Source of the DNA: Acidimicrobiia bacterium
Lineage (GTDB): Bacteria > Actinomycetota > Acidimicrobiia > Spongiisociales > UBA5794
Length of the DNA: 64,000 nt
Assembly (NCBI GenBank): GCA_030431785.1
Contig: JAUIIM010000002.1
Coordinates: 37,927 to 101,926 of the forward strand
Direction of reading: 5' to 3'
Position numbers and translations under genes: made by a program. The notes beneath the pieces were generated by a model. That model searched no databases. It was not told where the DNA came from and worked only from the letters and a program-made list of their open reading frames with translations. Shown in pieces: positions 7,399-30,690 of this stretch. How positions within the stretch are numbered: position 1 is the first letter of the stretch; every line of letters starts with the position of its first letter.

Positions 7399-8459
7399 CA
7401 GGCATCCACCTGCACGATCTTCTGCATCCAGAAGATGCCAACGAGGATGAACACACCGCCTCCGATCAGCAGCCCGATACCTACACCGGTCGTGATCAAC
7501 GGTTCGACGTATCCGGGATTCGTCGCCCAGATGAATGCAAACAAGAAGAGCGGCATGATCGACAGGACGATTGCTGAGATACGGCCCTCAGCTGTCAATG
7601 CTTTCATCTCTCGACGAAGTCGGTTCCGCATCACCATCGTCTCGGCGGTCGTTTGGAGTACCTCGGCGAGGTTACCGCCGACCTCCCGCTGGATGTTGAT
7701 GGCGAGTACGGTCCATTCGAAGTCCTGCGACGACATCCGAATTGCGATGTCGTTCATGGCATCATCGATGCTCTTCCCGAGTCGGATCTCGGCGATGGCG
7801 CGACCGAACTCGCGACGGGTCGGCTCTGGTGCTTCCTCACCGACGGCCTCGACTGCTTGGAGCAGCGAGTAGCCGGCGCGAAGGGACGTGGCGATCAGGT
7901 TGAGGGTGTCGGGAAGCTGGTCCTCAAACTTCTTCCGCTGTCGGGCGGCGACCTGGTTCACGAACATCAATGCACCCAACAGGACGATGAAGCCAGCGAT
8001 TGCTCCCCAGAGGAGCGAGCGCGTGAGCGCCGTGACCACGAGTCCGAACAGGATCGCCAAGGCGAGTGCGGCGATGATCGCTTCACCCGATTTCAGTGGC
8101 AGGTCGGCTGTTTCGAGCGCTGCTTCGATCTTGTTCGTTGCTCCACGCTTCTCCGCTGCGGATTCCGCAGAACGCGCAGCTCGACGGAGAAAACGGAACT
8201 TGGCGAAGAGTCCGCTCGATCCATCGGCCTCTGCGGAATAGGTCGTCAACCGAGTGTTGATGGATGCTTCCGTCCTCGATCGAGTCGACCCGAAGAGGAT
8301 GATGAAGAGCAAGAAGACCGCGATTGCAGCACCGAGTGATGCCAGTAGCACCAGCATCGATCCCGACGACGAGGCCGCCGTCTCCGAGGTCTGCGCGAGG
8401 GCGGGGCTGGCCGTGAGGACCAGCATCATGACGCCCAGGAGTACGGTGAGACGCTTCAT
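7398..8459 (-). CDS. tadB: type II secretion system F-family protein (TadB) with N-terminal signal/extension
   Basis: Signal-like MKRLTVLLGVMMLVLTASPALA. T2SSF core QLPDTLNLIATSLRAGYSLLQAV. Start overlaps the tadA stop (ATGA); stop overlaps the tadC start by 1 nt. Confidence 0.8.
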   Translation of the reverse strand: MKRLTVLLGVMMLVLTASPALAQTSETAASSSGSMLVLLASLGAAIAVFLLFIILFGSTRSRTEASINTRLTTYSAEADGSSGLFAKFRFLRRAARSAESAAEKRGATNKIEAALETADLPLKSGEAIIAALALAILFGLVVTALTRSLLWGAIAGFIVLLGALMFVNQVAARQRKKFEDQLPDTLNLIATSLRAGYSLLQAVEAVGEEAPEPTRREFGRAIAEIRLGKSIDDAMNDIAIRMSSQDFEWTVLAINIQREVGGNLAEVLQTTAETMVMRNRLRREMKALTAEGRISAIVLSIMPLFLFAFIWATNPGYVEPLITTGVGIGLLIGGGVFILVGIFWMQKIVQVDA

Positions 8460-9839: not shown

Positions 9840-11030
9840 CTAGCGGAACCAGCCCCGTTTGGTGTCTTGTTCTTCTTCGACCGCTTCGCCCTCGAACACA
9901 AGGGCTGCGACGGCACGCAGATCTTTCGCCGGTCGGGACCTCGGATACAACGAGATCACGGGCTCGCCTTCGTTCACTGCCCTCGGCACCAACCTATCAG
10001 ACGCAATCGCTGCCTGAACCTCGAGACCGAGCGCACGTTCGAGCTCATCGATGTCGAGACGGGCCTTCGAATTCACACGGTTGAGGACGAGCTTGATCTT
10101 CTCGAACGGGAACTTGATGAGTTCCAACGTGTCGAGTGCGAGCTTTGCGTTCTTGACCGCCGGGAGATCCATGTCCACGACGAGGAGAACAGCATCGGAG
10201 CGCTCGAGGATCGAGAGCACCGGTTCGTCCAGGAAGGGAGCGGTGTCGATGACGATGTAGTCGAACATGCGCTTGAGCATGCCGATCGTCTTCACCACGA
10301 CCTGTGTCGAGACCTCGTCGGCGAGCGACGGCTCGAGGGGGGCAGACAGGACGCGCATGCCCGAGCTGTGGGTTGCGAGAAGGCTGTCGAGAAGCGCCTC
10401 GTCCAACTTGTCGATGTCGCGGGCGGCATCGACGATCGTGTGCTGTGGCTCCACCTGGAGCGAGATGCAGACGTCACCGAACTGAAGATCGGCATCGAGC
10501 ACGACCACTCGTTCCGGGGCATCCGACATCGCGGCAAGACCCAACGCCGTGTTGACGGTCGTCATCGTCTTACCAGCGCCGCCCTTCGGCGACATGATCG
10601 TGATGACTTTCCCGATCTTGGTCTTCGCCGCACCCCCGGTCTGGATCATCGTCTCGACCTTCTCGATGTGGTTCAACATCGAGGAGACCTTCTGTCCGTC
10701 GAGGGGCATGTCCACGACGTCTTTGTAACCGACACGGATGGCTGCGCGGAGTACGTCGAGCGTTGGTTTCTCGGCTGCGAGCACGAGGGGCAACGTCGGC
10801 TGGATGTCCAGCAGCTGCGCCGCCTCTGCTACGCCGGCTTCGTGACCGAACCCGGGACCGATGATCGCCAACTCGATGCCCTCTTCGACCAGCTTCCGCT
10901 GGGCGTCGGACACGTTGCGGGCGGTGTAGACCTTGTGGCCGTCGAGCAGCCCAAGGATGGTCTCCGTTGCCGCGGCGTCCGTGTCGACGACGAGGATCGA
11001 GCGGGTGGCGATACCGGGGTCACTCGGCAT
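9840..11030 (-). CDS. tadZ: TadZ/CpaE-like ATPase (atypical receiver domain + MinD/ParA-like domain)
   Basis: Deviant Walker A MSPKGGAGKTMTT. N-terminal receiver-like ILVVDTDAAATE. The track ORF extends to 11261 through Arg/Ser-rich junk overlapping cpaB. The ATG at 11030 overlaps the cpaB stop by 11 nt. Confidence 0.85.
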   Translation of the reverse strand: MPSDPGIATRSILVVDTDAAATETILGLLDGHKVYTARNVSDAQRKLVEEGIELAIIGPGFGHEAGVAEAAQLLDIQPTLPLVLAAEKPTLDVLRAAIRVGYKDVVDMPLDGQKVSSMLNHIEKVETMIQTGGAAKTKIGKVITIMSPKGGAGKTMTTVNTALGLAAMSDAPERVVVLDADLQFGDVCISLQVEPQHTIVDAARDIDKLDEALLDSLLATHSSGMRVLSAPLEPSLADEVSTQVVVKTIGMLKRMFDYIVIDTAPFLDEPVLSILERSDAVLLVVDMDLPAVKNAKLALDTLELIKFPFEKIKLVLNRVNSKARLDIDELERALGLEVQAAIASDRLVPRAVNEGEPVISLYPRSRPAKDLRAVAALVFEGEAVEEEQDTKRGWFR

Positions 11031-18311: not shown

Positions 18312-19016
18312 CTACGGTGAGGACGTTCCGAAAACGTCGGGTTCAAGTCGGATCAGGGCTCGCTCGGTCAGGTCCCGGTCGACGCCGGGGATCAGTCCGG
18401 TCACGGCAGTGTGGTGATAACGAACTTCGATACCCATGACGTCGAGACCTCCGCCGGATGGTTCGAGCGTGGTGTCACGACTCGATGGCACCCACGGGCC
18501 ACCGTACGTGGCCGGCCCCGGGTTCGGGTCGGGACAGGGCGTCCATCGGCAGGGAACGAGCGGTGTGAACGAATACGTGTTGACGGATCCAGCGACCTTG
18601 GCGCCCGTGGTCTCGTTGGCCTTGAAGATCTGCACGCTGATGAGCACTGAGGAATCGACCTGGTCGTACAGCCCGGCTTCGAGAGCCTCGAGGATCGCCA
18701 TGTCGGCAGCGTCCCTGGTCCCCATGGTCGCTCCGGTCCTCGCGGCCGAGGAGGTGGCGGAAGCGATCGTCATCTTCTCCTTGAACAGGAGACCGTATTC
18801 GACGATGCCGAAGACCAACAGGATCAGCAGTGGGAGCACGATCGCCATCTCCACGATGGCGGCGCCCCGCTCGTCCTTGTTTCGGTGGAGCCCGAATATC
18901 GCCACTTCAAAACCTCGATCGCCAGCTGTCGGATTGCTACGCATCGTATCCGCGAAACCACTCATTGTCCACAGCGGTTCCGACGGTCGCTCTGCGCGTT
19001 CTTCCCGTTCGAACAT
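18312..19016 (-). CDS. TadE-like pseudopilin/pilus assembly protein (start uncertain)
   Basis: Contains ERGAAIVEMAIVLPLLILLVFGIVEYGLLF (TadE N-terminal motif) about 50 aa into the track ORF. The true start is probably downstream of 19016 (for example the ATG at 18944). Confidence 0.7.
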   Translation of the reverse strand: MFEREERAERPSEPLWTMSGFADTMRSNPTAGDRGFEVAIFGLHRNKDERGAAIVEMAIVLPLLILLVFGIVEYGLLFKEKMTIASATSSAARTGATMGTRDAADMAILEALEAGLYDQVDSSVLISVQIFKANETTGAKVAGSVNTYSFTPLVPCRWTPCPDPNPGPATYGGPWVPSSRDTTLEPSGGGLDVMGIEVRYHHTAVTGLIPGVDRDLTERALIRLEPDVFGTSSP

Positions 19017-19107
19017 TATCGGTCAGAAACCCCGGTACTTGAATGGGTTCAGCGACCCAAGCGGGTGGTTTACCGGTGGACGGACTGTCTAGGCATCCAC
19101 CCTTCGC

Positions 19108-19135
19108 ACTTCGACGGCGCATGCACCGTCGAAGT
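19108..19135 (-). terminator. 10-bp stem hairpin just downstream of tRNA-Leu
   Basis: ACTTCGACGG-CGCATGCA-CCGTCGAAGT, 3 nt after the tRNA 3' end on the minus strand. Confidence 0.5.
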
Positions 19136-19138
19136 TCG

Positions 19139-19221
19139 TACCGGGAGGGGGACTTGAACCCCCACGGGCTTGCGCCCAGTGGATTTTGAGTCCACCGCGT
19201 CTACCATTCCGCCATCCCGGC
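19139..19221 (-). tRNA. tRNA-Leu (anticodon CAA)
   Basis: Minus strand reads GCCGGGATGGCGGAATGGTAGACGCGGTGGACTCAAAATCCACTGGGCGCAAGCCCGTGGGGGTTCAAGTCCCCCTCCCGGTA. It has a 7-bp acceptor stem, anticodon stem GUGGA/UCCAC with loop CUCAAAA, a long variable arm and T-arm GGGGG-TTCAAGT-CCCCC. No encoded CCA. Confidence 0.93.
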
Positions 19222-19297
19222 TGGGACCGCGAGCGTACCGCACCTGCTGCTCTTTCACTTCCGCAAACACGGTCTCACACCGGATCGCCTGGCCACA

Positions 19298-20110
19298 TCA
19301 CCCGTCGATCGCCGACCGCAGTTCCGAGACGAACATCCGTAGTGCATCGGCCGCCTGCACAGTGGTCGAGGATTCCATCACACGGCGGACCACGGCCGTC
19401 CCGACGATCACCCCGTCGCCGTGCCGGGACGCCGCTGCAGCCTGTTCCGGTGTCGAGATGCCGACACCGAATACGACAGGCACGTCCGACCTTGCCCGGA
19501 TACGGGCAGCAAGTGCATGGATGTTCTCGGATGCGGCATCGCGTTCTCCCGTGACACCGACCTCGGCAATCGCATAGACGAATGCTGGTTCGGTCTCTAG
19601 GACCGCATCGAGACGCTCGTCGGTCGTCGTCGGGGCAGCGAAAGCAACCATCCCGACGCCCTCCTCCGCCGCAGCTGCGCTGAACGGTGCAGCCTCGTCG
19701 ATCGGAAGGTCGGGGATGATCACGCCGTTGATCCCGCGTTCGGCTGCCTGTGCGAAGAACTCCCGGACGCCGGATCTCAGCACCGGGTTCACGTAGGTCA
19801 TCGCAAGGACCGGCGTCTGTGTCGTCTCCCGGACAGCGGCCGCGACCCCGAGCGCATCGGGAAGGGTGATCCCTTGGGCGATGGCACGGTGACCGGCAGC
19901 CATGATGACCGGCCCGTCCATCAACGGATCGGCATACGGGATGCCGATCTCGAAGCCGTCGGCGCCCGCATCCGCCATCGTCTTGAACAGCTCGACCGAC
20001 GCGACGGGGTCAGGGAGCCCGGCCGTCAGGAACGGGAGCAGCACCCCACGACCCGCCTCCCTTGATTCGGCGAACATTCGATCCAGTGCGGTACGAGGTC
20101 GATCACCCAT
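19298..20110 (-). CDS. trpA: tryptophan synthase alpha chain
   Basis: [29 protein letters not shown]. The track ORF extends to 20323 inside trpB. The ATG at 20110 overlaps the trpB stop (ATGGGTGA). Confidence 0.9.
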
Positions 20111-21287
20111 CGACGCCCGCGATCTGTTGGACATCCTTGTCGCCGCGCCCGGAAAGGTTGAGGACGACCGTCTTGCCTGCCAGTTGCGCCTGTTCTCGGA
20201 CGATCCACGCAAGACCGTGGCTCGACTCGAGGGCAGGAATGATGCCTTCCGTCTCCGACAGGAGGTGGAAGGCTTCGACTGCTTCGTCATCCGATACCGA
20301 CACATAGTCCACCAAACCCGCATCCTTGAAGTAGGAGTGCTCGGGTCCGACGCCCGGGTAGTCGAGTCCGGCAGAGATCGAGTGTGCTTCGAGGACCTGC
20401 CCCCATTCGTCCTGGAGCATGTAGGTCATCGATCCGTGCAGGACACCGGGTGATCCGTGACCGAGCGAGGCACCGTGCTTGCCCGTCTCGATACCGAAAC
20501 CCGCAGCCTCGACTCCGACGAGGGAAACGCCTTCGACGCCTGCGAACGGATAGAAGACGCCCATGGCATTGGATCCGCCACCGACGGGCGCAACGATGAC
20601 ATCGGGAGATGGTTTGCCCGCTGCGCCGTCGAGATCGGCTGCGAGCTCCTCCCCGATCACCTTCTGGAACTCGCGGACGATCCACGGGAACGGGTGCGGC
20701 CCGACGACCGATCCGATGATGTAGTGCGTGTCCTCGACCGTGGCGACCCAGTCGCGCAGCGCCGCAGAAACCGCATCCTTCAGTGTTCCCGCTCCGTCAG
20801 AGACCGAAACGACCTCTGCTCCGAGCAGCTTCATCCGGTAGACGTTGAGGGCCTGGCGCTCGATGTCCTTCTCGCCCATGAACACGACGCAATCGAGTCC
20901 GAGCAATGCACACGCAGTGGCAGTGGCGACACCGTGCTGCCCCGCACCCGTCTCTGCGATGACGCGACGCTTGCCCATCCGTTTCGTCAGTAGACCCTGA
21001 CCGATGGTGTTGTTGATCTTGTGAGCTCCGGTGTGGGCCAGGTCCTCACGTTTGAGCCACAGGTCAAGACCGAGCTGGTCCGAGAGGCGCTTTGCGTGAT
21101 AGGTCGGTGTCGGTCGGCCGACGTACCGGGTCCGGAGGTCGTTGAGTTCCGCATGGAACTCCGGGTCGCCCCACGCATCCTCGAATGCGGCTTCCAACTC
21201 TTCGAGCGCAGGCATCAGTGTCTCCGGGGCAAAGGCGCCACCGAACTGCCCGAACCGTCCCGCTTCATCGGGTCTGCTGTAGGTCAT
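20103..21287 (-). CDS. trpB: tryptophan synthase beta chain
   Basis: [16 protein letters not shown] (PLP lysine), GGGSNAMG, and full-length similarity to the TrpB pattern. Confidence 0.95.
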
Positions 21288-21889
21288 GCTTGTTTCGCCC
21301 TCTCGATGAAGTCGAGGATCCTACCGGGGTCCTTCACGCCCGGCGCCGACTCGAGCCGGCTCGATGCATCGACACCGAACGGCCGCACGGAAGCGACCGC
21401 TGCAGCGATGTTGTCGGGTCCGAGCCCGCCGGCGAGGACAAAGGGCCCTCCAACTCCGTCGAGGAGGGACCAATCGAACTGCTTCCCTGTTCCCCCGTGC
21501 ACCTCTTGGGATGCGGTGTCGTAGAGCGGCATCGCCGGAGGAGCCACGTGGACATCACGTGGGCTCACCTCACCGACCGGTACCGGGAGCAAGCTGAGGT
21601 ATCCGGCGTCGACGGCCACTGCGGAGACCTCGGCAGCATGCGCACCATGATTCTGGATTCCGTCCGCACCGACCTCGTCTGCGAGCGACAAGGCTTGATC
21701 GGGCGTCAACCCCACGGTGACGATGAATGTCGACACGGCGACGCTCTTTGCACACTCACGAGCGAAATCGGCGGTGACACGACGCGGTGACCCCTCCGCG
21801 AAGTTGAATCCGACAGCGTCGGCTCCTCCCTCGGCTGCCGCCGCCAGCGCACGCTCATCGGTGATCCCGCAGATCTTGACCCAGGTCAT
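21284..21889 (-). CDS. trpF: phosphoribosylanthranilate isomerase
   Basis: [42 protein letters not shown]. Start and stop are coupled to the neighbouring genes. Confidence 0.9.
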
Positions 21890-22653
21890 CTCGCAGCCTT
21901 CAGCGCAGCGACCAGCGTGCGAGGATCGTCGGCGCGTACGAGCGCCTCACCGACGAGGATGGCGTCGTATCCGGCGTTCGCCATTCGGGCCGCACCGGCC
22001 GGATCGGACACACCGGACTCACCGATCGAAACCACGTGATCCGGAATCAACGGCGCTGCGTTCTCAGCGACCGACAGGTCGGTCACGAACGTGTGGAGAT
22101 CCCGATTGTTCACACCGACGATCGGAGCGTCGAGTGCCAACGCCCGCCCCACTTCGTCGAGTGTGTGCGCTTCGACGATCGCACTCATCCCTGCCTCACC
22201 GGCCACGCCGAGCAGTTCTTCGATCTGCCCGTCGCCGAGTGCCGCGACGATCAACAACACGGCGTCGGCTCCCGATGCGCGTGCTTCCCAGATCTGAGCA
22301 CCGTTTCGGGTGAAATCCTTGCGGAGGACCGGAACGTCCACCGCGGTTCGGACCGCAGCGAGGTCGTCGAGCGAGCCAGCGAAGAAGTACGGCTCCGTCA
22401 GCACGGAGATGGCATCGGCGCCCCCCGCCACGTAAGAAGCCGCACGGTCATCGGGACGGATCTCCATGTCGATGTCACCGGCGGACGGAGATCGGCGCTT
22501 GATCTCGGCGATCACCGACAGGCCGGGTCCGCGTAGCGCAGCCAGAAAGTCTCGCGGTGGCGGCATCGCCTCGGCCCGCGCACGGAACTCCTCGAGCTTC
22601 GTGGCTGCGACGAGCGCTCGCTCGTCGGCACTCGAGAGGATCTTCGTGAGCAT
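21886..22653 (-). CDS. trpC: indole-3-glycerol phosphate synthase
   Basis: VIAEIKRRSPSAG, VLRKDF, VEAHT, VGVNNRDL, ESGV. Confidence 0.92.
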   Translation of the reverse strand: MLTKILSSADERALVAATKLEEFRARAEAMPPPRDFLAALRGPGLSVIAEIKRRSPSAGDIDMEIRPDDRAASYVAGGADAISVLTEPYFFAGSLDDLAAVRTAVDVPVLRKDFTRNGAQIWEARASGADAVLLIVAALGDGQIEELLGVAGEAGMSAIVEAHTLDEVGRALALDAPIVGVNNRDLHTFVTDLSVAENAAPLIPDHVVSIGESGVSDPAGAARMANAGYDAILVGEALVRADDPRTLVAALKAAR

Positions 22654-22698
22654 TCCGCCATGCTATCGGCGTCCTGGAGGTCGCCAGCCCCGACGAGA

Positions 22699-23355
22699 TC
22701 AGGGCTTCAATCGATACCCCACGCCACGGATCGTCTCGATCGCCAGTCCGGGGAAGCGCCTGCGGAGTTGTCGAACATGGACGTCCACAGTCCGTGGTTC
22801 TCCGGTGTAGTCCCACCCCCAGACGGCGTCGAGGATCTGGGAGCGACTCAGGGCCAGACCGACATGCTCGGCGAAGTACCAGAGAAGGTCGAACTCCCTT
22901 GTTGTGGGACGGACGACCGATCCGTCGTCGAGACGCACCTCACGCCGGGCACGGTCGATCACGACACCACGTACCACGATGGTGTCTCCTTCTCCCTGTG
23001 GCTGCAGTTCGCACAGGCGCAGCACAGCCTGAAGGCGGGCAACGACCTCGCGATCCGAACATGACGGGTCCAGGTGACCGATCGCACCGTTCTCATACGC
23101 CGCAATCCGATCGGGTGCTGATCCTTCAGCATCACAGAACACGACCGCTGCCCGGGTCCGCGAAACGATCGTCGCGACGAGATCACCTGTCGGCGGGTTG
23201 TCGCTGCGGCCGATGATGACGATCCGAGACGAGTCACAGTCCGTCGACGATTCGAATGCAGCTGTGGCGAACGTCAGACCGAGCCTTCGAACGGAGGACT
23301 CGACGCACTGCATCATCTCGTGGGTAGGACCCACCATCAGCACGTCGGTATCCAC
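22699..23355 (-). CDS. OmpR/PhoB-family winged-helix regulator with degenerate (pseudo) receiver domain
   Basis: The C-terminal wHTH is canonical (RPTTREFDLLWYFAEHVG..SRSQILDAVWGWDYTGEPRTVDVHVRQLRRRF..IETIRGVGYRL). The N-terminal domain has VLMVGPTHE, RIVIIGRSD and GHLDPS where the acidic pocket, phospho-Asp and Lys normally sit. GTG start. Confidence 0.8.
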   Translation of the reverse strand: MDTDVLMVGPTHEMMQCVESSVRRLGLTFATAAFESSTDCDSSRIVIIGRSDNPPTGDLVATIVSRTRAAVVFCDAEGSAPDRIAAYENGAIGHLDPSCSDREVVARLQAVLRLCELQPQGEGDTIVVRGVVIDRARREVRLDDGSVVRPTTREFDLLWYFAEHVGLALSRSQILDAVWGWDYTGEPRTVDVHVRQLRRRFPGLAIETIRGVGYRLKP

Positions 23356-23476
23356 GGTCGACCTCCATCACGTTCTCGACGGTCACCGACGCTATCGGGA
23401 GAGCCTGAGACACGGATGAAAGACCACGGAGAAGATGATGAGGTCGAGGGCTGAGAGACCTGCCGCCTCGGACGTC

Positions 23477-24997
23477 CTAACGCAGGTCGCTGGACGCCTC
23501 GACGGCGGCCAGGACCGCTGCCGCCTTGTTCACGCACTCCTGGTACTCCGCGCCGGGATCGGAATCGACGACGACCCCCGCACCGGCTTGTACCCAAGCG
23601 GTGGTGCCGTCGACGACGCAGGTGCGCAATGCGATCGCTGTGTCGAGCGAACCGGAGAAGTCGACATATCCGACAGCACCGGCATACGGACCACGGGCAG
23701 TCGGCTCCAGCTCGTCGATGATCTCCATCGCCCGGACCTTGGGGGCACCACTGACCGTGCCGTGCGGGAACGTCGCCCTCAGGACGTCGATCGGTCCCTT
23801 CCCGGATGCGAGCTTGCCACTGACGCCACTCACGATGTGCATCACATGCGAATAGCGCTCGATCACCATGAGGTCGTCGACATGGACCGACCCATGCTCA
23901 CACACACGTCCGAGGTCGTTGCGTGCGAGATCGATGAGCATCGTGTGTTCGGCACGCTCTTTGGGATCGGCGAGGAGCTCTGCTTCCAATCGCTGGTCCT
24001 CTTCCTCGGTAGCGCCCCGCGGCCGCGTGCCAGCGATCGGACGCGAGTAGGCGATGCCGTCACGCACCCGGGACATGAGCTCCGGGGAGGAGCCGACGAT
24101 CGCCGTCGAGCCCGACTTGACCAAGAACATGAACGGGGACGGATTGACGAGCCGTAGGGCGCGGTACAGCGCAAACGAGTCGCCGTGGAAGTCCACCTCG
24201 AAACGGAGCGAGGGCACGATCTGGAACGCATCGCCAGCGATGATGTATTCGACCGCCCGTCTTACGGATCGCTCGAAGTCCTCCCTCGTCATATTCGCCT
24301 GAGCAACGGGGCGTGCGTCGAACTTCGGTCGTCCGGAGGCGACCGATCGCACCGGAGCCGCGAGTGCTTCACCTGCCGCCCGGAGTTCGGTCAGCGCCTG
24401 TTCGTAGTCCGACACGGGATCGCCCCCGACGAACACGTTGCGGAACAGCGTGATCGAATCTCTGAGCCGGTCGAACGCGGCAACGCCACCGGCGAACTGC
24501 CAGAGCATCTCGGGTAGACCACGGTCGTCGTGCGGCCGATCCGGCAGGTGCTCCACGTACCGCACTGCGTCGTACGCCAGGTAGCCGACAGCTCCCGAGT
24601 GGAGCGGGGGCACGGCGCCCGGAAGATTCATCTCGTCAGGCTCCGGCGTGGTGAACCGATCGAGAAGGTCCTCCAACACCTCGAGCGGATCCCCATCCGC
24701 TATCGGAATCGACGGATCGTCGACGCTGGCAGTTCCGTCGTGTGACGTCAGGGTGAACGCCGGATCCCAGCCGATGAACGACCAACGGGCCCAACGCTCC
24801 CCCCCTTCGACCGACTCGAGGAGAAACCCGTCGCCGTCCCCGACCAGCCGTTCATACACGGACACCGGCGTCAGGTGATCTGCGACGACCTCGATCGCGA
24901 CAGGGACCACGGCGAATCGCTCAGCAAGGGCGAGAAAGGCAGCATGGTCCAGCGAGGCATTCATGGAGTGGGACAGTAGTTCCCCGACATCCGACAT
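23477..24997 (-). CDS. trpE: anthranilate synthase component I
   Basis: LLESVEGGERWARWSFIG, GAVGYLAYD, IAGTRPRG, and C-terminal GGAVGYVDFSG..DTAIALRT. Start is ambiguous: the ATG at 24997 lies inside a heptamer repeat, and the ATG at 24964 (MNASLDH) is the alternative. Confidence 0.92.
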   Translation of the reverse strand: MSDVGELLSHSMNASLDHAAFLALAERFAVVPVAIEVVADHLTPVSVYERLVGDGDGFLLESVEGGERWARWSFIGWDPAFTLTSHDGTASVDDPSIPIADGDPLEVLEDLLDRFTTPEPDEMNLPGAVPPLHSGAVGYLAYDAVRYVEHLPDRPHDDRGLPEMLWQFAGGVAAFDRLRDSITLFRNVFVGGDPVSDYEQALTELRAAGEALAAPVRSVASGRPKFDARPVAQANMTREDFERSVRRAVEYIIAGDAFQIVPSLRFEVDFHGDSFALYRALRLVNPSPFMFLVKSGSTAIVGSSPELMSRVRDGIAYSRPIAGTRPRGATEEEDQRLEAELLADPKERAEHTMLIDLARNDLGRVCEHGSVHVDDLMVIERYSHVMHIVSGVSGKLASGKGPIDVLRATFPHGTVSGAPKVRAMEIIDELEPTARGPYAGAVGYVDFSGSLDTAIALRTCVVDGTTAWVQAGAGVVVDSDPGAEYQECVNKAAAVLAAVEASSDLR

Positions 24998-25007
24998 CCG
25001 ACATCCG
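24984..25007. repeat. heptamer repeat CCGACAT x3 (ATGTCGG on the trpE sense strand)
   Basis: Three exact units plus a partial fourth, read directly. Each unit carries an ATG on the trpE strand. Confidence 0.95.
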
Positions 25008-25030
25008 GTCGGAGGGAACCAGACTTGCCG

Positions 25031-25777
25031 CTACACCTCGGCGAGGTCCTCGAGACCGAGACGGACGAGGAGTTCGGTGAACCAACTCGAGAGCTCGACG
25101 ATGTTGCCGGACACCATCAGCCAACCGAAGAACGCAAGCAGCAGACCGGACGCGACGGTGATCTGGGTGAGATAGCGCCTCACCCAATTGAAAGCAGAGA
25201 ACGCCTTGGCGAGGAGAAGTGAGGTGAGAAGGAATGGAATCCCGAGTCCGAGACTGTAGAAGAACAGCACGATCATGCCTTCTCCCACCGTGTCGCTACT
25301 GGCACCGAGCGCAAGCGCTGAGGCGAGGAACGGCCCGATGCACGGAGTCCAACCGAAGGCAAACGCGGCGCCCATGATCGGTGGTCCGAAGAGACCTAGA
25401 CGCGACGCCTTCGAGGATTCGATGCGTCGGTCCTTCAGGAGCGGCATCAGCCACGACGGAGTCCAGATGGCCGTCACCGCGATGAACACGCCCATGGCGA
25501 TGATCACCCAGCCGGCGATGACCGTGAAGATCGACTGGTTCAGGAACGAGGACAAGCTCGTCGCCGTCGCACCGAGCGAGACGAACACCAGGGTGAACCC
25601 GAGGACGAACAGTGCGGTGCGCCCGACCACGCGGCGCATGGACACCTCTCCCGACGACAGCTCGACCATGTCGTAGCCCGACATGAGGGAGATGTACCCG
25701 GGCAGCAACGGCAACACGCACGGCGACACGAACGATGCCGTACCGGCCAGCACGGCCGCGATGAGTGAGACTTCCAT
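25031..25777 (-). CDS. ccdA: cytochrome c biogenesis protein CcdA (DsbD-family thiol-disulfide transporter)
   Basis: MEVSLIAAVLAGTASFVSPCVLPLLPGYISL and second-half GWTPCIGPFL. The track ORF extends to 25975 through the repeat array, so I prefer the ATG at 25777. Confidence 0.88.
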   Translation of the reverse strand: MEVSLIAAVLAGTASFVSPCVLPLLPGYISLMSGYDMVELSSGEVSMRRVVGRTALFVLGFTLVFVSLGATATSLSSFLNQSIFTVIAGWVIIAMGVFIAVTAIWTPSWLMPLLKDRRIESSKASRLGLFGPPIMGAAFAFGWTPCIGPFLASALALGASSDTVGEGMIVLFFYSLGLGIPFLLTSLLLAKAFSAFNWVRRYLTQITVASGLLLAFFGWLMVSGNIVELSSWFTELLVRLGLEDLAEV

Positions 25778-25837
25778 GGATCCTGACCTGTTCGTCTTCC
25801 AATGCAACGTTACGACGACCGCTGTTGTTCCGGGATT

Positions 25838-26009
25838 GAGGGATAAAGAGACGAAGGGACAAAGGGACGAAGGGAACAAAGGACAAAGGACAAAGGAACA
25901 AGGGACGAAGGGAACAAGGGAAGAAAGGGAGACGGGGACACGGGGAACAAGGGAAGAAGGGAAGACGGGGAACAAGGCAACACGGGAATGGGAGGTGGGG
26001 CGATGGGGA
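25838..26009 (+). repeat. purine-rich ~8-nt tandem array (NNAAGGGA-type, ~20 units)
   Basis: Read directly: ..CGAAGGGA CAAAGGGA CGAAGGGA ACAAAGGA CAAAGGA CAAAGGA ACAAGGGA CGAAGGGA ACAAGGGA AGAAAGGGA GACGGGGA CACGGGGA ACAAGGGA AGAAGGGA AGACGGGGA... I count 17 runs of G3 or longer on the + strand. Confidence 0.95.
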
Positions 26010-26045
26010 TCCGGTGCTGGTCACAAAGAACGGGGGTGTGCTCGG

Positions 26046-27299
26046 ATGGGGTTACCCTGCAACGCCATGACCATGTCCCCCTACGGGCCGCACGTCGCGC
26101 CCACACAACGCGTGCCAGCCTCAGTGCGCCGAGTGATCTTCCTCACCGCACTCATCGGATTCGTCGCCGGATACGGTGCGAGCCAGATGTCCCACACCCT
26201 CCCGTTCGCCCGGAATTCTCTCGATCTCACCGAAGGTCAGATGAGCACCATCTTTGCCGGTGTACGCGCTGCATCACTCCTCGGCGTCGTGTTTGCGATC
26301 ATGGCGGACCGGATCGGACGGAGGAAGCCTCTCCTCGGTGCATTCGTCGTCTTGTGTTTCGGGAGTCTCGCCACCGCATTCATCCCGTCCGTGCCCGCCT
26401 ATGTCCTGGCACAGGCGTTCGTGCGAATCGCCGTCGTTGCGATCGCAGCGATTTCCATCGTGCTCATCGCCGAGGAGACCCCCGCAGGCAACCGGGCCAT
26501 CGCTCTCGGCATCTACGGTCTTGCCGGGTCTCTCGGCGTCGGCCTCGGCCTCGTCTTGCTGCCGATCGCCGAAGGAAGCGACGAGGCGTGGCGCATCCTG
26601 TTCGGGATCGCATCGCTCGGCCTCCTCATCGTTCCGCTGCTCGCACGATTCCTCCCTGAATCGAAGGCATTCGTGCCGGCTCCTCCGTTCCCGTTCCTGA
26701 AGGCACTCTCCATGGGACTCGGCAAGCACTTCTGGCCGTTGGCCGGTGTCGCGTTCTTCGTCGCTGCGTTCTCCAGCCCGGCGTTCGATTTTGTCCTCGA
26801 GCGCCTGATCAACGACCTCGCATGGGACACCGGGGCGGCACGCTTCCTCTTGATCGTGTTCTCCGGAGTCGGCACTGTTGGGCTCCTCGTCGGCGGGCGC
26901 CTGGCCGACCGCATCGGACGCCGACCGACCACCGCCATCGCCTTGGCGATAGGACTCGTCGGAGGCGTCGGGTTCTACCTGCTCGATTCGGGCTGGTTCC
27001 TCGCCATCTCGATCTTCCTCGCAACATTGGGGGCCACGATGCTCACGCCGTCGTTCGCAGCACAGAAGGCCGAGCTCTTCCCAACCCGACTCAGGTCGAC
27101 CGCCGGTGGATGGATCACGAACTCCGGCATCGTGGGTTCGATTGCGGGCTTCACGGTGGGCGGGATGATGATCGACCGATATGGGCTCGCCACGACGGTT
27201 GCGGCGCTCTCGCTCGGACTGCTCATCTCGATCTTCCTGAACCTCAGACTGCCGGAGACGAGGGGGATGGATCTCGTCCGGCGGCCAGAACCCCGTTGA
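26046..27299 (+). CDS. MFS transporter
   Basis: Twelve hydrophobic segments. The MFS loop signature occurs twice (IMADRIGRRKP and GGRLADRIGRRPT). The track ORF starts at 25683 through the repeat array. The real start is the ATG at 26046 or 26067. Confidence 0.85.
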   Translation: MGLPCNAMTMSPYGPHVAPTQRVPASVRRVIFLTALIGFVAGYGASQMSHTLPFARNSLDLTEGQMSTIFAGVRAASLLGVVFAIMADRIGRRKPLLGAFVVLCFGSLATAFIPSVPAYVLAQAFVRIAVVAIAAISIVLIAEETPAGNRAIALGIYGLAGSLGVGLGLVLLPIAEGSDEAWRILFGIASLGLLIVPLLARFLPESKAFVPAPPFPFLKALSMGLGKHFWPLAGVAFFVAAFSSPAFDFVLERLINDLAWDTGAARFLLIVFSGVGTVGLLVGGRLADRIGRRPTTAIALAIGLVGGVGFYLLDSGWFLAISIFLATLGATMLTPSFAAQKAELFPTRLRSTAGGWITNSGIVGSIAGFTVGGMMIDRYGLATTVAALSLGLLISIFLNLRLPETRGMDLVRRPEPR

Positions 27300-30487: not shown

Positions 30488-30612
30488 GGATAGGACGAGG
30501 ATCACGGGAGCAAGGGACAAAGGGACAAAAGGGACGAAGGGACAAAGGACAAGGGACGAAGGGACAAAGGGAGCAAGGGACAAAGGGACGAAGGGACGAA
30601 GGGACGAAGGGA
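30488..30612 (+). repeat. GGGACRAA-type octamer tandem array (~13 units)
   Basis: Read directly: CAAGGGA CAAAGGGA CAAAAGGGA CGAAGGGA CAAAGGA CAAGGGA CGAAGGGA CAAAGGGA GCAAGGGA CAAAGGGA CGAAGGGA CGAAGGGA CGAAGGGA. There are 13 G3 runs between 30506 and 30611. Confidence 0.95.
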
Positions 30613-30651
30613 TCGTGGATCATGGATCATGGATCATGGATCGTGGATGGA
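30610..30651 (+). repeat. GGATCRT heptamer tandem array (6 units, 5 GATC sites)
   Basis: GGATCGT GGATCAT GGATCAT GGATCAT GGATCGT GGATGGA, read directly. It abuts the octamer array. Confidence 0.95.
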
Positions 30652-30653
30652 TG

Positions 30654-30690
30654 TCCGACCATCCGACAATCCGACAATCCGATCATCCAA
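30654..30690 (+). repeat. TCCGAYMA octamer tandem array (4 units plus a partial unit)
   Basis: TCCGACCA TCCGACAA TCCGACAA TCCGATCA TCCAA, read directly. Confidence 0.9.

What the first reader, a model, noticed from the sequence alone, without database searches (positions are those of the whole stretch)
22699..23355. OmpR-family regulator with a dead receiver domain embedded between trpE and trpC
The 218-aa protein has a textbook OmpR/PhoB winged-helix DNA-binding domain. In its N-terminal domain the positions expected to carry the acidic pocket, the phospho-acceptor Asp and the conserved Lys read VLMVGPT, IVIIGRSD and GHLDPS. Phosphorylation-dependent control therefore looks impossible.

No partner kinase is adjacent. 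The gene sits inside an otherwise purely biosynthetic operon (trpE-X-trpC-trpF-trpB-trpA) with short intergenic gaps. In many actinobacteria this slot holds a small membrane protein, not a regulator.

A pseudo-receiver could have been repurposed as a ligand-sensing domain (tryptophan, anthranilate or chorismate?), giving a dedicated trp regulator of a kind I do not recognise from described systems.
Basis: partly seen in the sequence, partly recalled or inferred. Interest (0 to 1): 0.62.

Follow-up and report, generated by a model that had tools for sequence, protein, structure and literature searches.

The report
Kinase-less regulator with dead receiver
This gene is what remains of a two-component signalling pair: the sensor kinase gene was deleted in this one Acidimicrobiia species and the regulator lost its whole phosphorylation site but kept its DNA-binding half under selection, so it is a clear new example of a known class and not a new tryptophan sensor.

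Summary
ORF 22699-23355 (-) encodes a 218-aa OmpR/PhoB-type protein. Its winged-helix domain is intact. Its receiver has lost the acidic pair, the phospho-Asp, the Thr and the Lys, and no kinase gene is adjacent.

Relatives carry a canonical regulator plus histidine kinase in this same slot:
- Other genera of the family: ccdA-trpE-ygfZ-like-RR-HK-cytochrome c-trpCFBA.
- Seven other species of the genus: ccdA-trpE-RR-HK-trpCFBA.
- Five other families of the order: ccdA-(ygfZ-like)-RR-HK with no trp genes.

Several relatives have lost the pair entirely. This species deleted only the kinase.

Identity to same-genus orthologues is 12% for residues 1-62, 36% for 63-118 and 64% for the DNA-binding domain. 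Canonical orthologues share 80%, 86% and 77%. A strain about 4.5% diverged gives pN/pS 0.19 (p = 3.5e-4). The likely ancestral autoregulatory box (TTCACA-N5-CTTACA) is eroded here and absent from the rest of the genome.

Best reading: an orphaned aspartate-less regulator that probably still binds DNA without phosphorylation. The rival is a slowly decaying relic. Nothing ties it specifically to tryptophan. It is a new member of a known kind, closest to Campylobacter CosR after loss of CosS.

The parts
22699..23355 (-). Whole ORF of the orphan aspartate-less OmpR/PhoB-type regulator (218 aa, GTG start, TGA stop at 22699-22701)
   Evidence: the near-identical P0002 from an independent assembly shows the same layout
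23002..23355 (-). Pseudo-receiver, residues 1-118. All five catalytic residues are replaced (G9/P10, G49, C74/D75, P97). The first 62 residues are 12% identical to same-genus orthologues and residues 63-118 are 36% identical.
   Evidence: Residues 1-68 find only their own cluster among 1.84 billion representatives. The beta-alpha pattern is kept in AlphaFold2 models.
22702..22977 (-). Winged-helix DNA-binding domain, residues 127-218. The recognition helix RTVDVHVRQLR is intact. Three otherwise invariant residues of the alpha2-alpha3 loop are changed (Y181W, F184T, T187P).
   Evidence: Pfam Trans_reg_C. 64% identity to same-genus orthologues. 45 of 52 invariant columns kept. pN/pS 0.13 between strains.
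23362..23366 (-). GGAGG ribosome-binding site 6 nt upstream of the GTG start
23417..23433 (-). Eroded remnant (TTCTCC-N5-CTTTCA, 9 of 12 core positions) of the direct-repeat box TTCACA-N5-CTTACA. The intact box lies about 60 nt upstream of the regulator gene in all canonical same-genus loci.
   Evidence: 4.4 bits here against 14-25 bits in canonical loci
23402..23407 (-). CAGGCT at the position of the ancestral -10-like hexamer (TACTGT/TACGCT in same-genus loci). The first T is lost.
   Evidence: read from the aligned upstream regions; inference
22654..22698 (-). 45-nt junction where the roughly 1.4-kb histidine kinase gene of relatives is missing. Its 3' part is homologous to the sequence just upstream of trpC in relatives.
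   Evidence: The junction is also present in a roughly 4.5%-diverged strain (contig 22618-22823).
22660..22665 (-). TAGCAT, a -10-like hexamer 6 nt upstream of the trpC ATG. It is conserved in same-genus loci and is a probable own (leaderless) promoter of trpCFBA.
   Evidence: conservation shown; promoter function inferred
23477..24997 (-). trpE (anthranilate synthase component I), upstream neighbour
21886..22653 (-). trpC (indole-3-glycerol phosphate synthase), downstream neighbour, followed by trpF 21284-21889, trpB 20103-21287 and trpA 19298-20077
25031..25774 (-). ccdA-like (DsbD_TM) gene. Its start coordinate is approximate. It is the neighbour most widely linked to this regulator-kinase pair across the order.

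Best explanation
**What it is.** The gene is the orphaned half of a two-component system. The ancestor of this family carried a canonical OmpR/PhoB-type regulator and its membrane histidine kinase between trpE and trpC. A YgfZ-like gene and a small c-type cytochrome gene flanked them.

**What happened (shown).**
- The genus lost the two flanking genes.
- This species then deleted the kinase gene cleanly.
- With no phosphodonor, selection on the phosphorylation pocket and on the beta5 'DD' motif ceased. The N-terminal half of the receiver diverged beyond recognition, although it seems to keep the beta-alpha pattern.
- The winged-helix domain stayed under purifying selection.

**How it most likely works (inferred).**
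- The protein still acts as a DNA-binding transcription factor whose activity no longer depends on phosphorylation.
- Its activity is probably set by its amount. Its own autoregulatory box and -10 element are eroded and no terminator separates it from trpE, so it is probably made by read-through from ccdA-trpE.
- Its targets are unknown.
- It is not a tryptophan-specific sensor by any evidence obtained here.
For: **Orthology by synteny.**
- Canonical regulator plus kinase occupy the same slot in 7 same-genus species and most genera of the family.
- The own genome holds no closer paralogue and no relocated kinase.

**Divergence is strongly uneven across the protein.**

| Segment | Window vs genus | Canonical, within genus |
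|---|---|---|
| Residues 1-62 | 12% | 80% |
| Residues 63-118 | 36% | 86% |
| DNA-binding domain | 64% | 77% |

- Flanking trp and ccdA genes lag the within-genus mean by only 0-11 points.
- Invariant columns kept: 3 of 20, 14 of 31 and 45 of 52 in the three segments.
- Uniform neutral decay would not spare one domain.

**Selection between strains.**
- Residues 78-218: 13 synonymous and 7 non-synonymous differences, pN/pS 0.19, p = 3.5e-4.
- DNA-binding domain alone: pN/pS 0.13.

**The frame is maintained.**
- It is open and indel-free in strains up to about 8% diverged.
- One strain changes the start from GTG to TTG, which is still a start codon.
- A good ribosome-binding site and coding-like GC3 cover the degenerate part.

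**Fold.** The AlphaFold2 model with an alignment has pLDDT 86 and matches full-length OmpR/PhoB regulators. These include the phosphorylation-independent CosR, HP1043, RitR and GlnR.

**Precedent.** C. jejuni CosR lost CosS and its Asp (PMC3938529). Many pseudo-receiver regulators act as constitutive dimers (PMC12632262).
Against: **Signs of decay.**
- The candidate ancestral binding box upstream of the gene is eroded (9 of 12 core positions, 4.4 bits) and the ancestral -10 is damaged.
- The own genome shows no enrichment of the box (24 hits against 28-36 in controls at 10 of 12 or better). No target can be named.
- Seven otherwise invariant positions of the DNA-binding domain have changed. 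Three are in the alpha2-alpha3 loop, which contacts RNA polymerase in characterised family members (the role of the loop is from general knowledge).
- The beta5 'DD' of the alpha4-beta5-alpha5 dimer face is lost, so constitutive dimerisation is not assured.
- pN/pS of 0.19 is well above that of trpC and trpE in the same strain pair (0 of 13 differences non-synonymous).
- The module is dispensable. It was lost outright in G008, G017, G012, G014, G020 and G001, and is frameshifted in G002.

**Limits of the data.**
- The strain data come from low-depth Logan contigs, not reads.
- The N-terminal 62 residues have too few differences to test (about 5 non-synonymous to 4 synonymous).
Confidence: 0.55

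Rival explanations
1. Decaying relic. After the kinase was deleted the regulator lost its function. The gene is a transcribed passenger between trpE and trpC that has not yet been disrupted or deleted. Conservation of the DNA-binding domain reflects limited time, or weak residual selection such as avoidance of a toxic misfolded product.
For: - The pair was lost repeatedly and independently in relatives, and a 10-bp duplication frameshifts the regulator in G002.
- The autoregulatory box and -10 are eroded, and the box occurs nowhere else in the genome.
- Seven invariant residues of the DNA-binding domain have changed.
- pN/pS is higher than in the neighbours.
- The terminal branch is about 25 times the median.
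- Long open frames arise easily in DNA of 63% G+C.
Against: - Divergence is not uniform. Residues 1-62 are saturated at 12% identity, yet the DNA-binding domain keeps 64% identity and 87% of invariant columns. That is close to the lag seen in housekeeping neighbours.
- pN/pS is significantly below 1.
- There are no indels or stops in several diverged strains, and the start codon is preserved through a GTG-to-TTG change.
Confidence: 0.3
2. The pseudo-receiver has been repurposed as a small-molecule sensor for tryptophan, anthranilate or chorismate, and the protein regulates the flanking trp genes.
For: - It sits between trpE and trpC.
- Ligand binding by pseudo-receivers is documented in other systems (PMC12632262).
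- Residues 1-68 are unlike anything else known, so a new pocket cannot be excluded.
Against: - The position is inherited from a kinase-dependent system.
- In five other families of the order that system is not next to trp genes.
- No conserved regulator box lies upstream of trpE or trpC.
- trpC has its own conserved -10-like element.
- The form is confined to one species-level lineage among 41 relatives and 5.8 billion protein clusters.
- No selection signal is detectable in the N-terminal 62 residues.
Confidence: 0.07
3. Thiol or redox switch. The five cysteines gained in the pseudo-receiver and linker (C17, C40, C74, C99, C115) allow disulfide-dependent dimerisation, as in RitR or HP1021. 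This would fit the redox theme of the ancestral neighbourhood (ccdA, c-type cytochrome).
For: - The protein has five Cys against 1-2 in all 21 orthologues, none of them in the DNA-binding domain.
- Redox-regulated pseudo-receiver regulators exist (PMC12632262; RitR structures appear among the fold matches).
Against: - By my own estimate, random drift at this base composition gives roughly 3% Cys codons. The enrichment is therefore what relaxed constraint alone would produce.
- No relatives exist in which to test conservation of any Cys.
- None of the strain variants speaks to it.
Confidence: 0.05

Closest known systems
CosR of Campylobacter jejuni (OmpR-type orphan; the cognate kinase CosS is kept only in non-thermotolerant Campylobacter), PMC3938529
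   Same: - The evolutionary scenario is the same within one genus: relatives keep an adjacent kinase and a phosphorylatable Asp.
- One lineage lost the kinase gene and the Asp and kept the regulator.
- It is an OmpR/PhoB-type winged-helix output.
- CosR is the top structural match.
   Different: - CosR changed mainly the Asp (D51N) and is essential, with known targets.
- Here all five catalytic residues are gone and half of the receiver sequence is unrecognisable.
- The candidate autoregulatory site is eroded here, and essentiality and targets are unknown.
HP1043 (HsrA) of Helicobacter pylori and ChxR of Chlamydia trachomatis: phosphorylation-independent OmpR/PhoB regulators with degenerate receivers (PMC8345958, PMC3960148)
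   Same: - Highly degenerate receiver, no kinase, intact winged helix.
- They offer a plausible mode of action as a constitutive DNA binder.
   Different: - Those proteins are conserved across their species or genus and form constitutive alpha4-beta5-alpha5 dimers.
- Here the form is confined to one species-level lineage.
- The beta5 'DD' of that interface is replaced (GAIGH), and dimerisation is untested.
Pseudo-receiver (PsR) and aspartate-less receiver (ALR) domains as a class (PMC12632262, PMC4395418)
   Same: [quoted passage not shown]
   Different: The domain is so diverged that PF00072 no longer detects it. It would be missed by the Pfam-based surveys that define the class.
RitR of Streptococcus pneumoniae (redox-sensing ALR regulator)
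   Same: OmpR-type ALR regulator. A cysteine (C115) lies near the alpha5/linker region.
   Different: There is no evidence that any of the five Cys is conserved or functional, and no related sequences exist in which to test this.

Membership tests
OmpR/PhoB-family transcription factor (winged-helix output) | C-terminal Trans_reg_C (PF00486) winged-helix domain | tested here: met
   - E 2.9e-22, 79 bits against a cut-off of 26.2.
- PDB sequence matches to VbrR, RegX3 and PrrA.
- Fold matches.
Canonical two-component response regulator | Receiver domain recognised by PF00072 with the DD, D, T/S and K residues | tested here: not met
   - No PF00072 hit at E 0.1 or better.
- G9/P10, G49, C74/D75 and P97 stand at the five positions.
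Canonical two-component response regulator | Cognate histidine kinase (adjacent or elsewhere) | tested here: not met
   - Only 45 nt separate the gene from trpC.
- The best kinase hits in the own genome are 30-35% identical paralogues. The genome is 95% complete.
Pseudo-receiver / aspartate-less receiver atypical regulator (definition of PMC12632262) | Domain homologous to a receiver | tested here: met
   - It is the positional orthologue of canonical regulators.
- Residues 58-118 align to regulator models.
- The beta-alpha pattern is kept in both AlphaFold2 models. The model built with an alignment is biased by canonical rows.
Pseudo-receiver / aspartate-less receiver atypical regulator (definition of PMC12632262) | [quoted passage not shown] | tested here: met
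   All five are lacking.
Pseudo-receiver / aspartate-less receiver atypical regulator (definition of PMC12632262) | Still functional (binds DNA or regulates) without phosphorylation | not testable with these tools
   Only indirect evidence: the DNA-binding domain is under purifying selection.
Kinase-loss orphan of the CosR type | Close relatives keep the orthologous regulator with an adjacent cognate kinase and an intact Asp | tested here: met
   Seven same-genus loci and more than 12 loci from the family and order show regulator plus kinase with the canonical LLDLGLPG motif.
   - Linked in the family and in G028.
- Not linked in five other families of the order, where the pair sits by ccdA and a YgfZ-like gene without trp genes.
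   - The only conserved box lies upstream of the regulator gene itself.
- None was found upstream of trpE or trpC in 16-kb loci or in the window.
   No computation run here bears on this.

The most novel reading that the evidence does not exclude
The receiver did not simply decay but was remodelled into a new input domain. Residues 1-68 have no detectable relative among 1.84 billion representatives. Such a domain would sense a metabolite, a thiol or redox state through the five gained cysteines, or a protein partner. It would let a kinase-free regulator control the ccdA-trpE or trpCFBA transcription units. That would be a very young, datable birth of a one-component regulator from a two-component one, with every intermediate gene order still alive in sister species.
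Probability: 0.1. Interest if true: 0.6.

Novelty: new member of a known kind. Interest (0 to 1): 0.3.

Why it matters
Pseudo-receiver regulators are common, but how they arise is rarely visible. Here one conserved neighbourhood preserves the whole series:
- the full module (YgfZ-like gene, regulator, kinase, cytochrome c);
- regulator plus kinase;
- regulator alone with a dead receiver (this species);
- nothing at all.

A frameshifted regulator occurs in yet another species. The case shows that the DNA-binding domain can stay under selection while the receiver diverges past the reach of PF00072. Pfam-based surveys of pseudo-receivers will therefore miss such cases.

The case also corrects an annotation trap. 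Position between trp genes does not make this a trp regulator. It does not reveal a new mechanism.

Tried and rejected
- **Frameshift, compensated frameshift or inversion hiding a canonical N-terminus.** tblastn of 21 canonical orthologues against all six frames of 22600-23600 found only noise outside the ORF's own frame. Rejected.
- **N-terminus taken from another protein family.** phmmer of residues 1-68 against 1.84 billion representatives found only the protein's own cluster. The hydrophobic strand pattern stays in register with canonical receivers. In-situ divergence is preferred.
- **Assembly artefact.** The same layout occurs in independent Logan contigs from several studies, including diverged strains. 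Rejected.
- **Kinase or canonical regulator relocated in the genome.** Only 30-35% identical paralogous kinases and 41-44% identical paralogous regulators were found. Rejected, within 95% completeness.
- **Internal start codon giving a shorter protein.** Not needed. A GGAGG site precedes the annotated GTG, GC3 is coding-like in the first 62 codons, and no in-frame start lies between codons 15 and 72.
- **Known RNA leader or riboswitch for trp control.** Rfam at E 0.1 or better over 18500-27000 gave only a tRNA.
- **Sigma-70 consensus and terminator scan of 19000-26500.** It found no promoter-like site and no terminator within the cluster. This is uninformative for an actinobacterial promoter type.
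- **Regulon search with the ancestral box.** There is no enrichment in the own genome, and canonical genomes hold one site each. No targets could be proposed.
- **Naming the ancestral system.** Neither regulator nor kinase reaches any NCBIfam equivalog cut-off.
- **Phylogenetic placement.** The window's terminal branch is too long for a reliable position, and the own-genome paralogue rows were poorly extracted. Orthology rests on synteny.

Full report
**1.

The ORF at 22699-23355 on the minus strand encodes 218 aa from a GTG start.
- A GGAGG site lies 6 nt upstream. GC3 in the first 62 codons is 75%, like the neighbouring genes.
- Pfam finds only the winged-helix Trans_reg_C domain (E 2.9e-22). 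Response_reg gives no hit even at E 0.1.
- NCBIfam full-length regulator models and PDB sequences align only from about residue 58-70 onwards.

Alignment with the closest canonical relatives shows that every catalytic position is replaced:
- The acidic pair E/D is now G9/P10.
- The phospho-Asp is now G49.
- The Thr is now C74 or D75, depending on the alignment.
- The Lys is now P97.
- The beta5 motif GADDY is now GAIGH.

The neighbours are trpE (121 nt upstream) and trpC (45 nt downstream), followed by trpF, trpB and trpA. A ccdA-like gene lies 33 nt upstream of trpE. No kinase is adjacent.

**2. It is not an artefact**
- No other frame or strand carries a canonical N-terminus.
- An independent Logan assembly has the same 7.4-kb layout at 99.96% identity.
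- The sequence occurs in contigs from aquaculture, biofloc, marine, invertebrate and biofilm metagenomes of at least seven studies.
- One strain about 4.5% diverged spans the regulator-trpC junction without a kinase.

**3. What relatives carry in the same place**

A search of 5.8 billion protein clusters found only the protein's own 99% cluster as a full-length relative. All other hits are canonical response regulators, about 55% identical over the C-terminal 70%. Their contigs and the genomes of 41 relatives show the same neighbourhood.

| Group | Gene order |
|---|---|
| Five other families of the order | MatE-MFS / ccdA-(YgfZ-like)-RR-HK, no trp genes |
| Other genera of the family, and G028 | ccdA-trpE-YgfZ-like-RR-HK-cytochrome c-trpCFBA |
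| Seven other species of the genus | ccdA-trpE-RR-HK-trpCFBA |
| This species | ccdA-trpE-RR*-trpCFBA |

The slot is unstable:
- G008 (same genus) and G017 have trpE directly followed by trpC.
- G012 and G014 keep the YgfZ-like gene and the cytochrome c gene but have excised the pair.
- G020 keeps only cytochrome c.
- G001 (same genus) has a 466-aa oxidoreductase-like gene on the opposite strand.
- G002 (same genus) has a 10-bp tandem duplication that frameshifts the regulator.

The own genome holds no relocated orthologous kinase or regulator. The window's gene is therefore the positional orthologue of an ordinary regulator whose kinase has been deleted. The ancestral system reaches no named NCBIfam equivalog.

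**4. How the protein has changed**

Identity by segment:

| Segment | Window vs same genus | Canonical, within genus |
|---|---|---|
| Residues 1-62 | 12% | 80% |
| Residues 63-118 | 36% | 86% |
| DNA-binding domain | 64% | 77% |

- For trpE, trpC, trpF, trpB, trpA and ccdA, the window lags the within-genus mean by only 0-11 points. The DNA-binding domain has therefore evolved at nearly the normal rate while the receiver collapsed.
- I took the columns conserved at 95% or more in 43 canonical sequences. The window keeps 3 of 20 in residues 1-62, 14 of 31 in residues 63-118 and 45 of 52 in the DNA-binding domain.
- The recognition helix RTVDVHVRQLR is intact. Y181W, F184T and T187P change the alpha2-alpha3 loop.
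- Residues 1-68 have no detectable relative among 1.84 billion representatives except the protein's own cluster.
- The hydrophobic strand pattern stays in register, and even the single-sequence AlphaFold2 run predicts a beta-alpha alternation (pLDDT 48).
- With an alignment the model reaches pLDDT 86 with a shortened alpha2. That alignment is dominated by canonical rows, so this is weak evidence.
- Foldseek returns full-length OmpR/PhoB regulators, including the atypical CosR, HP1043, RitR and GlnR.
- In a tree the window's terminal branch is 5.1 changes per site against a median of 0.2. Its placement is unreliable.

**5. Is it still under selection?**

Logan contigs of a marine metagenome carry a strain about 4.5% diverged.
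- Residues 78-218 differ by 13 synonymous and 7 non-synonymous changes. This gives pN/pS 0.19, with a binomial p of 3.5e-4 against neutrality.
- The DNA-binding domain alone gives pN/pS 0.13.
- In the same strain pair, the trpC and trpE fragments show 13 synonymous and 0 non-synonymous changes.

The gene is therefore constrained, but less so than its neighbours.

For residues 1-62 the pooled data from three other strains are about 5 conservative non-synonymous changes (S21A, V22L, R23Q, V46I, I48V) to 4 synonymous changes. That is too few to test.
- No indel or stop was seen in any strain.
- In the most diverged strain (about 8%) the start changes from GTG to TTG, which is still a start codon.

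These are low-depth contigs, not reads.

**6. Regulatory DNA**

All seven same-genus loci with a regulator gene (including G002) have a direct repeat TTCACA-N5-CTTACA about 60 nt upstream of that gene.
- It matches 11 or 12 of 12 core positions and is followed by a TAnnnT hexamer.
- Other genera have CTTACA-N5-CGAACA at the same place.
- It is the only strong site in each 16-kb locus and essentially the only one in each genome.

This looks like the autoregulatory site of the pair. That is an inference from repeat phasing and position.

In the window:
- The homologous site reads TTCTCC-N5-CTTTCA (9 of 12; 4.4 bits against 14-25 bits).
- The hexamer reads CAGGCT.
- The own genome shows no enrichment of the box.

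Just upstream of trpC, the sequence GATAGCATGG, whose TAGCAT hexamer ends 6 nt before the start codon, is conserved in the window and in same-genus loci. This suggests that trpCFBA has its own, probably leaderless, promoter. The slot between trpE and trpC would then lie between transcription units, not inside one operon. Rfam finds no leader or riboswitch.

**7. Interpretation**

The data fit kinase loss followed by release of the receiver from constraint, with continued selection on the DNA-binding domain.
- I put about 0.55 on a still-functional, phosphorylation-independent DNA-binding regulator whose level is set by read-through from ccdA-trpE.
- I put about 0.30 on a slowly decaying relic.
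- I put about 0.05 on a cysteine redox switch. The protein has five Cys against 1-2 in orthologues, but by my estimate that excess is what drift at this base composition would give.

**8. Comparison with known systems**

By the definitions of PMC12632262 this is an atypical regulator with an aspartate-less pseudo-receiver.
- The closest documented scenario is CosR of C. jejuni, whose kinase CosS and phospho-Asp are kept only in other Campylobacter species (PMC3938529).
- HP1043 and ChxR are functional analogues.
- This case differs from them in three ways: the degeneration is more extreme (PF00072 no longer detects the domain), the form is restricted to one species-level lineage, and the candidate operator is eroded.

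I did not test that note.

The verdict is a new member of a known kind, of modest interest.

Noticed in passing
window 22660-22665 (-); same position in L043, L044, L045, L047, L049: A -10-like hexamer (TAGCAT or TACCAT, within GATAGCATGG) ends 6 nt before the trpC start codon. It is conserved across the genus whatever gene lies upstream. This suggests a leaderless trpCFBA transcript with its own promoter.
   Followed up: partly
L046 (G002, same genus) about 7855-7885: The canonical regulator gene carries a 10-bp tandem duplication (CACGCTGATC twice). It shifts the frame and gives an early stop, while the kinase downstream looks intact. This is either a second, independent decay of the same system or a MAG error.
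   Followed up: partly
L069 (G001, same genus) 468-1868, strand opposite to trpE and trpC: In this species the slot between trpE and trpC holds a 466-aa gene that looks like an FAD-dependent oxidoreductase (GGGAAG motif) instead of the regulator-kinase pair. I did not run it against Pfam.
   Followed up: no
L010-L012, L050-L054, L060, L061 (family relatives): An unnamed two-component system is conserved between trpE and trpC across the family. A YgfZ/CAF17-like folate-binding protein and a small c-type cytochrome flank it, and ccdA lies next to it. Each genome has a single direct-repeat box upstream of the regulator gene. The theme points to respiration or cytochrome maturation, but its signal and regulon are unknown.
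   Followed up: partly
L046 about 10000-10100 (between the kinase gene and trpC in G002): There is a run of TCTGTCC/TCTGTCT heptamer repeats. It is the same kind of intergenic simple-sequence array that earlier notes describe in this window at 25838-26009 and 30488-30690.
   Followed up: no
window 23355: In the most diverged strain seen (run X15, about 8% different) the start codon is TTG instead of GTG, so a start is preserved.
   Followed up: yes
window 19139-19221 (-): A tRNA gene lies directly downstream of trpA (Rfam, 59 bits).
   Followed up: no
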